DNA of 37,520 nucleotides, from IMG/VR virus record IMGVR_UViG_2541047896_000017. One strand, given 5' to 3'. The notes beneath the pieces are model-generated. The model was not told where the DNA came from. It made no database searches and saw nothing but the letters and a program-made list of their open reading frames with translations. Both the position numbers and the translations under genes were made by a program. This document shows, one piece after another, positions 57-37,520 of the stretch (position 1 is its first letter; each line of letters begins with the position of its first letter). The DNA comes from a virus (Duplodnaviria > Heunggongvirae > Uroviricota > Caudoviricetes).

Positions 57-83
57 GAAAAGAAAAAAGGCCGCAGAGCGGCC
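57..83 (-). terminator. Putative rho-independent terminator for the minus-strand int-distal operon
   Basis: Plus strand shows A-run then GGCCGC-aga-GCGGCC; on the minus strand this reads as hairpin followed by TTTTTTCTTTTC, downstream of the 193..723 gene. Confidence 0.5.
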
Positions 84-192: not shown

Positions 193-723
193 TCAGCCAA
201 CAAATTTAGCAACAAATACAGCAACCGCCGCCGTGAAAATGGTTGTGCATACTGGCACAATAATGCCACTCCAACGCCACTTCGTATTATCATCAACCTT
301 GTCAAACCGCCGATTCATCTCATCCATAATCTTGTCAAAGCGTTTATCCATCGCTTCGGTAAGCTCACCCTTCAGGCTGTTAATGTCTGATTTGAGCTGC
401 TCTTTCAGGTGAGCTGTATCAGATTTAAGCTCACCTTTCAGATTCGCAATATCGCATTTAAGATCACCTTTCAGATGAGCAATGTCTGCTTTGAGCTCAC
501 CTTTCACCTCACCAACATCAGCTTTGGTTGAGAGGTTTGTAGTGCGTTCAGTAAGCGTCGCAAGGTCGTTTCTTGTTAGCGATAAATCACCTTCGAGCCG
601 CTCAATTCGCCTTTCAAGTTTATCTGACATTCCGCCTCCACTATCACCGCCTCCCCCATCGAAAGAGTTGCCAATGTCCTCACGAATAAGGGTTATGCCA
701 TGCTCACTTTTAGCATATGCCAC
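193..723 (-). CDS. Coiled-coil protein with about five 11-residue repeats (LKGELKxDIAH-like), Gly-rich N-terminus and C-terminal hydrophobic anchor; function unknown
   Basis: ORF track 176 aa; repeats visible in the translation; C-terminal IIVPVCTTIFTAAVAVFVAKFV is a likely transmembrane segment; start abuts stop of upstream gene. Confidence 0.6.
   Translation of the reverse strand: MAYAKSEHGITLIREDIGNSFDGGGGDSGGGMSDKLERRIERLEGDLSLTRNDLATLTERTTNLSTKADVGEVKGELKADIAHLKGDLKCDIANLKGELKSDTAHLKEQLKSDINSLKGELTEAMDKRFDKIMDEMNRRFDKVDDNTKWRWSGIIVPVCTTIFTAAVAVFVAKFVG
385..530. repeat. About 33-bp imperfect tandem repeats (4-5 copies) encoding the 11-residue protein repeats
   Basis: Repeated units atttaagctcacctttcag... 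with 33-bp periodicity visible in the sequence. Confidence 0.6.
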
Positions 724-33010: not shown

Positions 33011-34205
<1,195 letters not shown>

Positions 34206-36408
34206 CTAATACTTGAGGATGCAACGAATCATTAGCCCCCCTGTTAATTACAGGTAGGTATGCCCATTCAATCTTTACTAAGTCGTCATCTGAAACAGTG
34301 TTATCATTTTGAATATAATTCACAAGTTCATTAAATGAGTGAATATCAAACCGCTCAATATTTTCTGTGGTTCTAATTGATTGCAATAGAGCAAGCACAA
34401 CCTTACTGCTATCAACTGAATTATCGATATGCAAAATTTTAGATAAACAATCTATTGCCATCAAGGGACGGTCTACTTTAATCAAGCAGTCTATAGCAAA
34501 ATAAATTTCTTCCGTTGAATCACAGCTGTATGCATTAACAAGAGTATTTTTCCAATACTCGAAAGGAAAATCATCAAATGAAGCGTTTAATGCATCCCAT
34601 GTTTCTTTTTTAAACGGTAACAAAAGAAAAAAAGCAATCTTTTCTTGAGCACTCCAGTCATTAATAACTGTCAACACCCATGATTTTCCTTCTCTGTAGT
34701 TTTTAGCCTGTACATAACCAGAAGCAAGAGAATTTTCCTTTTTAATATCACTAACAATAAGTTTTTTCAGTATATCTAAAGGAATTTCTAGATCTTCTGC
34801 GACCAGGCTACTACCAACAAACTCAGGCCTTTCAATAGATAGAGAGAATTCTAAGACTCCATCAATACCATTAATAGCATATATTTCGCATATTGATTGC
34901 CCTCGTTCTTTTGTCAACCTTTCTTCTTGGTCCCGCCAGTTTCCATTTTCATCAAATAGGAAGTAATTGTTTTGTGCAAAAAGTCGCTTGCTATAAAGCA
35001 TAGGATCTTCGGGCTTCAAGACTGTAGAAACATCTTTGATTTTTTCATTTTGTTCTGGTTGCATTGCCCAATAAGCACCTGAGAATCTTTTGTTTTTGTT
35101 ATAAACTTCTAAACATTTTTCCCACACCGCTAACTTCAATTCAGCACTATCTGTTTTTTTAGAAAAATCATACAATAGTTTAATTGCATCATCGAATTTA
35201 AATGGCGCTAAACTACCAATATTTTCAACTAAATCAACAAGTCTTAATGATGATTTACTTGCCAATTCAATTGTTAATTGAGTGTATATTTCAATCTGAG
35301 TACGGCACTCATCACCCGATGGCCTTTTATTAAAACCGTTAGGAATAAAGTTTCTAAAAGTTGGAATATGTGTGCCAGATGTTACTTGCGTGTTGTTGGG
35401 TAGCAACTGAACTAAAACACGCCATGCTGTATCGGGCCACTCCCTTGCCAATGCGTTGAAAGCAGCAATACGTCTATCTATATCAGCTGTAGTATGAGGA
35501 AGCCATGGTAACAATATGTTGATTATCGAGTTAAGTGGCCTGTTAGCCCAATTGCCACCAGGATCATGGCTATCCAGCTCCCCTAATATTACTAAAGAGC
35601 GAGATAAATAGTTAGGCGCCCAAGCTAATCCTTCAATAGCCCATAGCAGTCCTGTCATATAATTCCGACCTGAAATTCCACCGATACCTTCCTGTGCAAA
35701 AAGTGAATCAAATGGCTTGTCTTGGTGAGATGCAGCATTTTCCACTTCGTCGATAAAACAGTCAGGAGCACTTTCCGCAAGCATAACTTGAATATCTTGC
35801 GTACTAGCCCATAATTGCCAGCTAGAAGCCGAAAAAACCTCTTTAACCACACTTGAGGCGCAATATTGCCCTTTATATTTTGAGCAATTAGTAAGTAACT
35901 CTTGCTTTGTTGCAACTAATGCCAACCCTTCGGATAGTCCTTTCCTTATTAATCGGCTGTGTGGTAAAACCTTCCCATAAATTACTGCTGCATAACGCTC
36001 TTCAGGTGCCAGTTCAAATTGTGGGTCGATAGTTTTAAAAACGGATACAACAGTCGTCCGAAACAAATCCAAATGATCATCGAATAATCTTGACGATACC
36101 GTTTGAAATGTTTGTATTCTATCTTTAAAACTCCAAGAACCTCTCTCATGAATCAAAGGACTATCTTGCATCCCTTCAATTATTCTTAATTTTCGAATCC
36201 AACTGTCATATGACTCACCAATAAGGCTTGTAATTATATCAATATCACCATTATTTTTTTCATCCCAGCAACCGACTAAAACAGCAATCGCTAACTCAGT
36301 CGCATAATCAACATTATCACTATTGTATACAATTAAGTTACCAGCAACATTATGGCCTGGTCCGGTATGATTTTGACTAATTGAACTGCAGCTATGAATG
36401 TTATCCAT
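34206..36408 (-). pseudogene. N-terminal part (about 735 codons) of large AT-rich cargo gene, truncated by IS5
   Basis: ORF-track 743 aa ORF whose last 7 codons plus stop come from IS5; start ATG 36408 (RBS gagg) or GTG 36414. Confidence 0.75.
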
Positions 36409-36413
36409 AGACA

Positions 36414-36776
36414 CTACCTCGTAATTTTATTTCCACCAATATTATCACCAGTGCCACTATGGTTTTGAATAATGACAGTTGCTGCATGAGGTTTTATAGA
36501 CGAGAGTATTTTTTGAATTTCACTACTATCCAATAGTTTTCTTTCAATTGCTATTTCACTCATTTCATCGTTCAAAGACAGTTTTTCAAGCTCTTTAGCT
36601 AAAGCAGGGGCTACAGCCTCATCAACAACCCAATTTTTTAACTTTTCTTTTATTGAAGTTGCAGTAATCGAAACATGATGTTTAAGCATGTCATAAACTA
36701 TGCCAGAAAGTATCGCCGAAGATAAAAAATCCATAACAATTTCCTTTAACGTAAGATATTTACTATCCAGATACAT
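36414..36776 (-). CDS. Small protein (120 aa) tightly coupled upstream of the large cargo gene; unknown function
   Basis: Stop TAG overlaps/abuts the large gene start; AT-rich; C-terminal QNHSGTGDNIGGN motif. Confidence 0.6.
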   Translation of the reverse strand: MYLDSKYLTLKEIVMDFLSSAILSGIVYDMLKHHVSITATSIKEKLKNWVVDEAVAPALAKELEKLSLNDEMSEIAIERKLLDSSEIQKILSSIKPHAATVIIQNHSGTGDNIGGNKITR

Positions 36777-36928
36777 TTTAAATCGAAGAAAGAGCTTTTA
36801 CCACGTATATTTATTGGCTAATAACATGATAACTCGACTATCTGCTATTCGCTTAAAACGAAGTGTTAGTTGGAATTATAGCCAGCACGACCTAGAATAA
36901 CATCAGCACTGCGTTAAGGGAGGTCGCT

Positions 36929-37189
36929 ATGTTCCGTTGCCCGCTTTGTGGCGCATCTGCCCGCATCCGTACCAGTCGTCCGGAAAATGATTCAAATACC
37001 GTGCGGCAAAAGTATTACCAGTGTAACAACCTGGAATGCGGTGTATGCTTCTCAACACTGGAAGCTTTCCATAAATTCACATCGAAACACGCCTCCGGCG
37101 TTCACTCTTCAGAAGGTATCCCGTGGCATGAGCTGCCAGCTTCACACAGGGGAAACAATCAGATGAGTTTGCCTTTACCTCAGGATTAA
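36929..37189 (+). CDS. ogr: Late gene transcriptional activator, Ogr/Delta zinc-finger family
   Basis: MFRCPLCGASARIRTSR...YYQCNNLEC resembles recalled P2 Ogr (CPLC...C..C zinc finger); RBS aagggagg. Confidence 0.85.
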   Translation: MFRCPLCGASARIRTSRPENDSNTVRQKYYQCNNLECGVCFSTLEAFHKFTSKHASGVHSSEGIPWHELPASHRGNNQMSLPLPQD

Positions 37190-37379
37190 CAGGCAGAATT
37201 GCCGGAGCAACAAAAAAGCGATAGATTACGCGCGGGTGCCTTTCGGCTGATGGTCGGAGGGAATACCCGAAGGCCAGATGTGGAAAGGCCCCGGAAAACA
37301 TCTCTGTTTAACCGAGGCCCTAACCGCATTACCTTGACAAGTGAAAGGTTAGCGCCTCTCCGGAAAAGGAGCAAGTGCT

Positions 37380-37520
37380 ATGTCGCAAAAATCGCTTACG
37401 GCCATCACGTTCTGCGTGACGGCAATCCTCATCATCTGGATGCTGCACGGTTCGCTGTGCGAAATACGGATGAGCTTCTGGGGAGCGGAGTTTGCGGCGT
37501 TCTTACAGTGTAAGCAGTAA
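37380..37520 (+). CDS. Hok/Gef-family small membrane toxin (46 aa)
   Basis: Translation MSQKSLTAITFCVTAILIIWMLHGSLCEIRMSFWGAEFAAFLQCKQ; SLCEIR and E(F/V)AAF(L/M) match recalled Hok-family motifs; RBS aaggag; overlapped out of frame by ORF 37199..37513 (Mok-like). Confidence 0.7.
   Translation: MSQKSLTAITFCVTAILIIWMLHGSLCEIRMSFWGAEFAAFLQCKQ

What the first reader, a model, noticed from the sequence alone, without database searches (positions are those of the whole stretch)
37190..37520. Hok/Mok-like toxin locus immediately downstream of ogr
A 46-aa ORF with a good RBS encodes a Hok-family-like peptide (SLCEIR...EFAAFL), overlapped out of frame by a longer upstream-starting ORF as mok overlaps hok. 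It may be host flank beyond attR or phage cargo; the window ends exactly at its stop so the context is cut off.
Basis: partly seen in the sequence, partly recalled or inferred. Interest (0 to 1): 0.5.

Follow-up and report, generated by a model that had tools for sequence, protein, structure and literature searches.

The report
Known hok/sok toxin module in prophage
The last 320 bases of the window hold a real hok/sok-type toxin-antitoxin cassette carried as cargo by a P2-like (P88-type) E. coli prophage; it is already annotated in public databases, so it is an ordinary, correctly spotted feature.

Summary
ORF 37380-37520 encodes a 46-aa peptide that passes Pfam's Hok/Gef threshold. It is identical to RefSeq WP_000078916.1 ("Hok/Gef family protein"). 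Phage P88 records label the same gene "MokW-like host killing".

The upstream leader (37234-37393) matches Rfam's sok/hok-leader model (48.4 bits, E 6e-10), below the curated cut-off of 59.

The R1-type RNA elements are present:
- a weak hok promoter;
- a 5' element whose complement lies about 65 nt past the window end (seen in sister loci);
- a minus-strand Sok-like RNA with a promoter in the homologous position, a variable 5' tail and a hairpin that is about 10 kcal/mol more stable on the minus strand in 39 of 39 variants.

The cassette is phage cargo, not host flank. The same gene follows ogr at four or more different chromosomal sites, and the attR core lies 261 nt beyond the hok stop. The abrupt window end is a provirus-clipping artefact.

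The mok-like ORF is real in this allele but is not conserved among sister alleles, so it is probably not a functional mok.

Novelty: already known. Interest: low.

The parts
36929..37189 (+). ogr (late-gene activator of the P2-like prophage); context gene. The hok promoter starts 10 nt after its stop.
   Evidence: Pfam Ogr_Delta 52.4 bits; RefSeq annotation in sister loci.
37199..37227 (+). Predicted hok promoter: -35 TTGCCG (37199-37204), 17-nt spacer, -10 TAGATT (37222-37227).
   Evidence: Read from the sequence. The same hexamers and spacing occur in Stx-phage copies (TTGCCC-17-TAGATT), and the -10 (TAGAAT) also in IncI1-plasmid copies, although the DNA further upstream is unrelated. It matches 8 of 12 consensus positions, below the scan threshold, so it was not reported. 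Inferred, not mapped.
37234..37520 (+). Visible part of the hok mRNA. The predicted +1 is 37234. The full mRNA would run about 65 nt past the window end, to ...GAUAAGGCACCC.
   Evidence: Rfam RF01794 hit at 37234-37393, 48.4 bits, E 6e-10, full model length. The same model hits the R1-type locus from its mRNA start to the hok ATG, on the hok strand. The 3' part was seen in sister loci.
37234..37248 (+). tac-like 5' element GGGUGCCUUUCGGCU. It pairs with the 3' fbi-like element (GGUCGAUAAGGCACCC) that lies beyond the window.
   Evidence: A composite mRNA (window plus the consensus 3' tail of sister loci) folds with nt 1-15 paired to nt 337-352, pair probabilities 0.83-1.0. All 3'-end variants keep a duplex of -20.8 to -28.9 kcal/mol.
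37282..37292 (+). ucb-like box GGAAAGGCCCC. It is predicted to pair with the GAGG region in the full-length form and with tac in the 3'-shortened form.
   Evidence: Folds of the 352-nt and 321-nt forms. The logic is as described for R1 in PMC9841398.
37314..37317 (+). Conserved GAGG, positionally equivalent to the mok Shine-Dalgarno of R1.
   Evidence: Invariant in the 10-sequence alignment; aligned to the GaGG of the Rfam consensus.
37325..37337 (+). Variable segment of 12-15 nt (here CGCATTACCTTGA): the predicted Sok 5' tail on the minus strand and its target in the hok mRNA.
   Evidence: 46 distinct versions of the surrounding stretch among 77 unique loci, with indels that are not multiples of three. 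Mean nucleotide diversity is 0.27, against 0.16 at hok third-codon positions.
37282..37342 (-). Predicted Sok-like antisense RNA of about 60 nt: 5' tail, then a long G+C-rich hairpin (37320 to 37287), then UUUCC.
   Evidence: The minus-strand fold is -23.9 kcal/mol against -15.5 for the plus strand. The minus strand is more stable in 39 of 39 variants (mean difference 10.4 kcal/mol), because G-U pairs on the minus strand correspond to C-A mismatches on the plus strand. The outer stem is paired in 38-40 of 40 variants. The ends are inferred.
37346..37374 (-). Predicted Sok promoter: -35 TTGCTC (37374 to 37369), 17-nt spacer, -10 TAACCT (37351 to 37346).
   Evidence: Same position as TTGCGC-17-TATCCT in the R1-type locus. 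PMC9841398 states that the Sok promoter mutation lies in dcb. The hexamers are near-invariant across variants. Only 6 of 12 consensus matches, so it was not found by the scan.
37352..37358 (+). dcb-like box GCGCCUC, predicted to pair with the GAGGC region in the 3'-shortened mRNA.
   Evidence: Fold of the 321-nt form; same stem in the Rfam consensus structure.
37380..37520 (+). hok toxin gene, 46 aa, with its SD AAGGAG at 37366-37371.
   Evidence: Pfam HOK_GEF 29.9 bits, above the cut-off of 22. Identical to WP_000078916.1 'Hok/Gef family protein'. 39% identity over 31 aa to R1 Hok. The ORF is 45-47 aa in 71 of 72 variants. Diversity is 0.164 at third positions against 0.07 at first and second positions.
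37334..37513 (+). mok-frame ORF, taken from the only canonical start inside the transcript's Sok-target region (TTG, 16 nt after GAGG). Allele-specific and probably not a functional mok.
   Evidence: a start at this position occurs in 17 of 72 variants, and there is no conserved leader ORF in any frame.
58..83 (.). attL core AAAAGAAAAAAGGCCGCAGAGCGGCC (the ihfA/btuC terminator). Its attR copy lies 261 nt beyond the hok stop in the sister genome DLI.5a.
   Evidence: Exact 26-nt repeat between window 58-83 and L015 6783-6808; flanks are btuC and ihfA.

Best explanation
This is a hok/sok-type type I toxin-antitoxin cassette of about 390 bp, running from its own -35 box to the 3' fold-back element. 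A P88-like (Xuanwuvirus, P2-like) prophage carries it as cargo between ogr and the attP arm. The prophage sits in the ihfA terminator of E. coli.

Proposed mechanism, by homology with plasmid R1:
1. A weak promoter makes a stable hok mRNA of about 350 nt. Its 5' end (37234-37248) pairs with its 3' end, which lies just beyond the window. This keeps the mRNA closed and untranslated.
2. Slow 3' trimming back to the stable hairpin just after the stop codon frees the 5' element. That element then pairs with the ucb-like box, and the leader refolds.
3. A short-lived antisense RNA of about 60 nt, made from the minus strand (about 37342 to 37282), pairs through its 5' tail with the refolded leader. 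This blocks expression and presumably triggers RNase III cleavage.
4. If Sok synthesis stops, the 46-aa membrane peptide is made and the cell is killed or arrested. Sok synthesis could stop on loss of the prophage, on host transcription shut-off by an infecting phage, or on induction.

Shown here: family membership of the peptide, leader homology, complementarity of the mRNA ends, minus-strand-specific hairpin stability, and phage linkage.

Inferred: transcript ends, promoter activity, toxicity and RNase involvement.

The biological role I think most likely is prophage retention (addiction), with abortive infection as a by-product of the same circuit. That step is inference only.
For: Peptide:
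- Pfam HOK_GEF is above threshold. The best NCBIfam model is HokA. RefSeq and phage records name the gene Hok/Gef or MokW-like.

Leader:
- Rfam RF01794 gives E 6e-10 over the full model length. The same model, on the same strand, covers the R1-type leader at 87 bits.

mRNA structure:
- 5'/3' end pairing has probability of about 1 in the composite mRNA. There is a predicted switch to tac/ucb and GAGGC/GCCUC pairing in the shortened form, and a metastable 5' hairpin in the nascent 40 nt.
- The 3' partner varies but always pairs. R1 uses a different complementary pair, GGCGCUU/AAGCGCC.

Sok:
- The promoter is in the homologous position.
- The hairpin is more stable on the minus strand in 39 of 39 variants.
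- The most variable segment coincides with the predicted Sok 5' tail.

Coding selection on hok.

Phage cargo:
- An identical peptide follows ogr next to ihfA, serS, flk/VasI and RES-gene flanks.
- Homology continues about 75 nt past the stop and then diverges by integration site.
- attL and attR cores were found.
- P2 itself has only a terminator and attP after ogr.

Experimental precedent for a prophage hok/sok: hokW-sokW of Sp5 (PMC8621323).
Against: - The Rfam hit is below the curated cut-off (48.4 against 59) and nothing is reported in gathering mode.
- The consensus promoter scan found no minus-strand promoter and no terminator in this stretch. The Sok promoter matches only 6 of 12 consensus positions and its U-tract is short (UUUCC).
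- The fold-back partner and the mRNA 3' end lie outside the window. They are taken from sister loci, two of which carry a mismatch or a wobble there (SE11 GGCCCCC, DLI.5a GGTACCC).
- No conserved mok ORF exists. In R1, hok translation requires mok translation, so how Hok translation is started and repressed here is not explained. Predicted accessibility of the hok SD did not differ between the full-length, shortened and Sok-blocked states (0.33, 0.30, 0.33).
- No expression, toxicity or phenotype data exist for this allele.
Confidence: 0.88

Rival explanations
1. The hok locus belongs to the host chromosome beyond attR (host flank) and is next to ogr only by accident of integration.
For: E. 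coli chromosomes do carry their own hok loci, and the window is cut at the gene end so the flank is invisible.
Against: - The identical peptide follows ogr at four different chromosomal contexts.
- Sequence downstream is shared for about 75 nt and only then diverges by site.
- The attR copy of the 26-nt attL core lies 261 nt after the hok stop.
- The gene is present in phage genome records of the P88 group (Xuanwuvirus), including P88 and 500465-2.
Confidence: 0.01
2. The cassette is a decaying, non-functional remnant. Because the mok leader ORF is lost, Hok is never translated, and the locus persists only by hitch-hiking with the prophage.
For: - There is no conserved mok ORF, and mok translation is required in R1.
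- A few variants are frameshifted or disrupted, for example the 44-aa form and L101.
- From my own knowledge, several K-12 chromosomal hok loci are inactive.
Against: - The 45-47-aa ORF is intact in 71 of 72 variants, with more third-position than first/second-position diversity.
- Promoters, tac, ucb, GAGG, dcb, the 3' hairpin and fbi are all retained across P2-like phages, Stx phages and plasmids.
- The minus-strand hairpin is maintained through changes in its inner stem.
Confidence: 0.08
3. The cassette is functional, but its main role is to help lysis and phage release after induction, as shown for hokW-sokW of the Stx2 prophage Sp5, rather than prophage retention or defence.
For: - PMC8621323: sokW disappears and HokW is made after mitomycin C, and phage yield halves without the locus.
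- A sister allele of this very subfamily sits in Stx2a phages.
Against: - HokW is a different, 51-aa Hok.
- From my own knowledge, P2-type phages are generally not SOS-inducible and have their own holin/endolysin and lysis-timing genes.
- Nothing here tests this.
Confidence: 0.15
4. The cassette is functional and serves mainly as an abortive-infection defence of the lysogen against other phages.
For: - R1 hok/sok reduces T4 plating (cited in PMC8621323).
- The neighbouring D-ogr gap carries defence genes: GapS6a here, and SIR2+DUF87 or GmrSD in sisters.
Against: - The Hok catalogue preprint found no enrichment of hok near defence systems (10.1101/2025.08.07.668861).
- There is no PADLOC match.
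- Untested.
Confidence: 0.25

Closest known systems
hok/sok (parB) of plasmid R1, the paradigm type I toxin-antitoxin system
   Same: - Small Hok/Gef membrane peptide with the SLCEIR...AAF motif.
- mRNA 5' end complementary to its 3' end.
- ucb, GAGG and dcb boxes in the same order.
- Stable hairpin right after the stop codon.
- Antisense promoter inside the dcb/hok-SD region.
- Antisense RNA made of a 5' tail plus a hairpin.
   Different: - Only 39% identity over 31 aa; 46 aa rather than 52.
- Leader scores 48 bits against 87 bits on the Rfam model.
- The end-pairing sequence differs (GGGUGCC/GGCACCC against GGCGCUU/AAGCGCC).
- No conserved mok ORF.
- Carried by a prophage, not a plasmid.
Gene SF19_gp52 of Escherichia phage P88 (Xuanwuvirus) and RefSeq protein WP_000078916.1
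   Same: This is the same gene: 95.6% nucleotide identity over ogr plus hok to P88, and 100% to E. coli SE11, M10 and DLI.5a, in the same position after ogr.
   Different: The public records annotate only the peptide ('MokW-like host killing', 'Hok/Gef family protein'). No Sok RNA, promoter or fold-back elements are annotated.
hokW-sokW of Stx2 prophage Sp5 (E. coli O157 Sakai)
   Same: A prophage-borne hok/sok locus shown experimentally to be a type I toxin-antitoxin pair (PMC8621323).
   Different: - HokW is a 51-aa peptide of another Hok subgroup, in a lambdoid phage.
- Stx2a phages additionally carry a 46-aa sister allele of the present subfamily, 82.7% nucleotide identity, beside a gene annotated 'membrane protein', or Ail/Lom family protein in the EDL933 record. 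That copy has not been studied.
Chromosomal hokA of E. coli K-12
   Same: Best-scoring NCBIfam model. From my own recollection, HokA has a similar C-terminal AAFLxC motif.
   Different: 34 bits against a cut-off of 89, so it is not a HokA equivalog.

Membership tests
Hok/Gef toxin family (Pfam PF01848) | Profile match above the curated gathering score | tested here: met
   29.9 bits against a cut-off of 22, E 4e-7, profile positions 5-42 of 42.
Hok/Gef toxin family (Pfam PF01848) | Short peptide with an N-terminal hydrophobic helix and a conserved SLCE...AAF C-terminal part | tested here: met
   Sequence LTAITFCVTAILIIWML followed by SLCEIR...EFAAFL; aligned to R1 Hok at 39% identity over 31 aa.
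Hok/Gef toxin family (Pfam PF01848) | Toxicity and inner-membrane damage on expression | not testable with these tools
   Needs an induction experiment.
NCBIfam HokA equivalog / Hok subfamily models | Score above the curated cut-off | tested here: not met
   HokA 34 bits against 89; Hok subfamily 21.6 bits against 73. It is a distinct Hok subgroup, not HokA.
[quoted passage not shown] | Leader RNA homologous to the Rfam RF01794 model | tested here: inconclusive
   48.4 bits, E 6e-10, full model length, but below the gathering score of 59. All four tested members of this subfamily (window, L012, L019, L013) score 42-48 bits; R1 scores 87.
[quoted passage not shown] | 5' tac element complementary to a 3' fbi element (fold-back inhibition) | tested here: met
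   A 15-bp end-to-end helix with probability of about 1 in the composite mRNA, kept in all 3'-end variants. The 3' partner is outside the window and is taken from sister loci.
[quoted passage not shown] | Stable 3' hairpin that would stop 3' trimming, and alternative tac/ucb and SD/dcb pairing in the shortened mRNA | tested here: met
   Predicted folds of the 352-nt and 321-nt forms. The hairpin GACGGGGGAGCAATCCCCCGTC shows paired changes in sisters. These are predictions only.
[quoted passage not shown] | Antisense Sok RNA with its own promoter, a 5' recognition tail and a terminator hairpin | tested here: met
   Promoter in the homologous position. Minus-strand hairpin more stable in 39 of 39 variants. 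The promoter is a weak consensus match and was not found by the scan. Transcription was not shown.
[quoted passage not shown] | mok leader ORF overlapping hok, whose translation is needed for hok translation | tested here: not met
   An ORF is present in this allele (TTG at 37334, -1 frame). Among sister variants, 40 of 72 have no start, 44 of 72 stop in mid-hok, and 0 of 72 have a canonical start within 14 nt of GAGG.
Cargo (moron) of a P2-like prophage | Lies inside the att-bounded element and travels with it between integration sites | tested here: met
   Four different host flanks; attL/attR core repeat with attR 261 nt beyond hok; present in P88-group phage genome records; absent from P2 itself.

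The most novel reading that the evidence does not exclude
This Hok subfamily may work without a mok leader ORF. It may keep only the GAGG ribosome-loading site, with the 12-15-nt variable Sok tail and target under diversifying selection. Co-resident copies (P2-like prophages, Stx phages, plasmids) would then be mutually non-cross-reacting addiction modules.
Probability: 0.25. Interest if true: 0.4.

Novelty: already known. Interest (0 to 1): 0.15.

Why it matters
It matters little beyond correct annotation.

- The peptide is already named in RefSeq and in phage records. Hok enrichment in prophages has been reported (10.1101/2025.08.07.668861). A prophage hok/sok has been characterised (PMC8621323).
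- The RNA half of the module (hok leader, Sok-like RNA) is not annotated in any of the records inspected here. The window and three sister loci all fall below Rfam's cut-off.
- Provirus callers routinely clip the element at the hok stop. This removes the 3' fold-back element and about 260 nt of the prophage end.
- The missing mok and the variable Sok tail are modest leads for people who study type I toxin-antitoxin regulation.

Tried and rejected
- **Rfam in gathering mode on the whole window:** no hit. The sok model appeared only in E-value mode.
- **Consensus promoter/terminator scan of 36780-37520:** it found only a promoter-like site upstream of ogr and nothing for hok or Sok. The promoters proposed here rest on positional homology, not on the scan.
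- **tRNA scan:** none, so there is no tRNA att site.
- **PADLOC:** no match for Hok or for the two neighbouring minus-strand proteins.
- **A mok-free switch model:** I tested whether the GAGGC/GCCUC stem competes with an anti-SD of the hok SD. Predicted SD accessibility was the same in all three states, so I dropped it as a claim.
- **Covariation in the tac/fbi helix within the subfamily:** not testable on the 5' side, because my search pattern fixed that sequence. Only one-sided changes and the comparison with R1 are available.
- **Do copies in one genome carry different Sok tails?** Only one same-genome pair was in hand (L063 and L103, which do differ). That is too few to conclude anything.
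- **Literature search for hok with P2-like and ogr:** it gave no paper on this locus.

Full report
**What is in the sequence**

The ORF at 37380-37520 (+) encodes 46 aa, MSQKSLTAITFCVTAILIIWMLHGSLCEIRMSFWGAEFAAFLQCKQ. Its stop codon is the last three bases of the window. AAGGAG lies 8 nt upstream of the ATG. ogr is 36929-37189 (Pfam Ogr_Delta, 52.4 bits). A 104-codon ORF (37199-37513) overlaps hok in the -1 frame and ends 7 nt before the hok stop.

**Identity of the peptide**

- Pfam HOK_GEF scores 29.9 bits against a gathering score of 22 (E 4e-7).
- The NCBIfam HokA and Hok-subfamily models hit well below their cut-offs (34 against 89, and 21.6 against 73). This is a Hok/Gef peptide of a subgroup distinct from HokA and from R1 Hok.
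- Identity to R1 Hok is 39% over 31 aa.
- The same 331 nt occur at 100% identity in E. coli SE11, M10 and DLI.5a. Related copies occur in 1,548 of 5,426 complete E. coli genomes. There the gene is annotated 'Hok/Gef family protein', WP_000078916.1.
- Phage records of the P88 group (Xuanwuvirus, Peduoviridae) carry ogr plus this gene at 93-97.5% identity. Several of them label it 'MokW-like host killing'.

**The RNA side**

Rfam in gathering mode reports nothing. With an E-value threshold, RF01794 ('sok') matches 37234-37393 on the plus strand over the whole model, at 48.4 bits and E 6e-10, against a cut-off of 59. The plus-strand orientation is expected. In a canonical R1-type locus the same model hits the hok-sense strand, from the mRNA start to the hok ATG, at 87 bits. 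Three other members of the present subfamily score 42-48 bits. The subfamily's leader is therefore homologous to the hok leader but sits systematically under Rfam's threshold. This is consistent with no RNA feature being annotated in the public records inspected here.

**Anatomy**

- *hok promoter.* Upstream of the leader lies TTGCCG-17 nt-TAGATT (37199-37227), ending 7 nt before GGGTGCC at 37234. The same hexamers and spacing are kept in the Stx-phage copies, and the -10 (as TAGAAT) in the IncI1-plasmid copy, whose upstream DNA is otherwise unrelated. The TTG 'start' of the 104-codon ORF is this -35 box.
- *3' end.* Sister loci show what the window lacks. After the stop comes the hairpin GACGGGGGAGCAATCCCCCGTC, then about 26 nt, then GAUAAGGCACCC, after which homology ends.
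- *Fold-back.* In a composite mRNA (window plus consensus tail), nt 1-15 pair with nt 337-352 with probability 0.83-1.0. When the RNA is cut back to the hairpin, the 5' element instead pairs with GGAAAGGCCCC (37282-37292), and GAGGC (37314-) pairs with GCCUC (37354-). The first 40 nt alone form a local hairpin.
- *Comparison with R1.* This is the tac/fbi, tac/ucb, SD/dcb and metastable-hairpin scheme described for R1 (PMC9841398). All 3'-end variants keep a duplex of -20.8 to -28.9 kcal/mol with the 5' end. R1 uses a different complementary pair.

**Sok-like RNA**

On the minus strand, TTGCTC-17 nt-TAACCT (37374 to 37346) occupies the position of R1's TTGCGC-17-TATCCT. PMC9841398 states that the Sok promoter mutation lies in dcb, which fits this position. 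The predicted transcript (about 37342 to 37282) has a 5' tail, a long hairpin and then UUUCC.

The same segment folds on average 10.4 kcal/mol better as minus-strand RNA than as plus-strand RNA, in 39 of 39 distinct variants. The cause is that G-U pairs on the minus strand are C-A mismatches on the plus strand. This is a strand-specific sign of selection for an antisense RNA. The outer stem is paired in 38-40 of 40 variants, and the inner stem exists in different self-complementary versions, for example AAACA/UGUUU and GUUAAC/GUUGAC.

Weak points are the poor consensus match of the promoter (6 of 12, not reported), the short U-tract, and the absence of any transcript data.

**The mok question**

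In R1, mok translation up to the hok SD is required. Here the GAGG is invariant, but the 12-15 nt after it are the most variable part of the transcript. Their mean diversity is 0.27, against 0.16 at hok third-codon positions, and they carry indels that are not multiples of three.

Among 72 variants:
- 40 have no ATG, GTG or TTG in the mok frame after the last in-frame stop.
- 44 stop 58 nt before the hok stop.
- Only the window's allele group and a few others (17 in all) have a start in this region, a TTG about 16 nt after GAGG.
- None has a canonical start within 14 nt of GAGG whose ORF reaches the hok SD, in any frame.

I do not regard it as a conserved mok. How Hok translation is coupled to the GAGG site in this subfamily is unresolved. 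A simple anti-SD competition model was not supported by predicted accessibilities. The variable segment coincides with the predicted Sok 5' tail, which is the recognition element in R1. This fits allele-specific Sok/hok pairing, but I could not test that.

**Host flank or cargo**

The exact peptide is indexed in 38,461 blocks of the assembly collection. In all ten places shown it follows ogr of a P2-like prophage, with ihfA-pheT, serS-rarA, flk/VasI or a RES-domain gene downstream. The DNA is shared for about 75 nt after the stop and then diverges according to the site.

The window starts just after btuC and has the 26-nt core AAAAGAAAAAAGGCCGCAGAGCGGCC at 58-83. In strain DLI.5a the window's last 5.2 kb matches at 99.9% apart from an IS, and the second copy of the core lies 261 nt after the hok stop, in the ihfA terminator. 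P2 itself has only a terminator and attP after ogr. The cassette is therefore phage cargo placed between ogr and the attP arm.

The cut at the stop codon is a provirus-boundary artefact: 34 of 48 truncated viral-contig loci end at the same base.

Sister alleles at 82-89% identity sit in Stx2a phages and on IncI1 and IncF plasmids. In the copies read, homology starts at the hok promoter (the -35 box in the Stx-phage copies) and ends at the fold-back element. The mobile unit is thus about 390 bp.

**Function**

The circuit is the R1-type one with high confidence. The role is not tested. Published precedents are:
- plasmid post-segregational killing;
- partial T4 exclusion by R1 hok/sok;
- help with lysis and release for hokW-sokW of Sp5 (PMC8621323).

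A survey preprint reports hok enrichment in prophages and no enrichment next to defence systems (10.1101/2025.08.07.668861). I favour prophage retention, with abortive infection as a by-product of the same instability of Sok, and I hold this loosely.

**Verdict**

The finding is real and correctly interpreted apart from the mok analogy. It is already known at the level of gene and family, and it is ordinary for E. coli prophages. The un-annotated RNA elements, the lack of a conserved mok and the variable Sok tail are the only points of modest interest.

Noticed in passing
window 33157-36776 (minus strand): The gap between gene D and ogr holds a GAPS6-type anti-phage pair. The gapS6a homologue is at 36414-36776 (NCBIfam, 135 bits). 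Its large partner appears to be cut by an IS5-family element (transposase at 33157-34137): only a 743-aa ORF remains, against a 930-aa gene in strain DLI.5a. Sister prophages carry SIR2+DUF87, GmrSD or other genes in the same gap, so it is a variable cargo slot.
   Followed up: partly
window 58-83, and L015 6783-6808: The prophage is integrated in the bidirectional terminator between btuC and ihfA. A 26-nt core repeat marks attL and attR. Related prophages with the same ogr-hok end sit next to serS, flk/VasI or a RES-domain gene instead, with a different attP arm.
   Followed up: partly
window end (37520); loci L025-L144: 34 of 48 truncated viral-contig copies end exactly at the hok stop. Provirus boundaries in that collection are evidently set at the last called gene, which removes the hok 3' UTR and about 260 nt of prophage.
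   Followed up: yes
window 193-723 (minus strand): A small gene annotated as a DUF1640/CCDC90-family or hypothetical protein lies between attL and the integrase. This is possibly further cargo at the left prophage end.
   Followed up: no
L013 2501-2880; L018; L019; L017: Sister alleles of this 46-aa hok module (74-89% identity) occur in Stx2a phages beside a gene annotated 'membrane protein' or Ail/Lom family protein, on IncI1 and IncF plasmids, and in E. albertii (there apparently degraded). In the intact copies (L013, L018, L019) homology begins at the hok promoter and ends at the fold-back element.
   Followed up: partly
L011 3390-3400; L015 about 6580: Two otherwise identical E. coli copies carry a change in the 3' fold-back element: GGCCCCC in SE11 (a mismatch) and GGTACCC in DLI.5a (a G-U wobble). 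These might loosen the closed mRNA form.
   Followed up: no
L021 (Xanthomonas pisi, 857-nt contig); L023 (Vagococcus sp.): Exact matches to the hok leader occur in assemblies of unrelated genera. Contamination with enterobacterial DNA is the likely cause.
   Followed up: no
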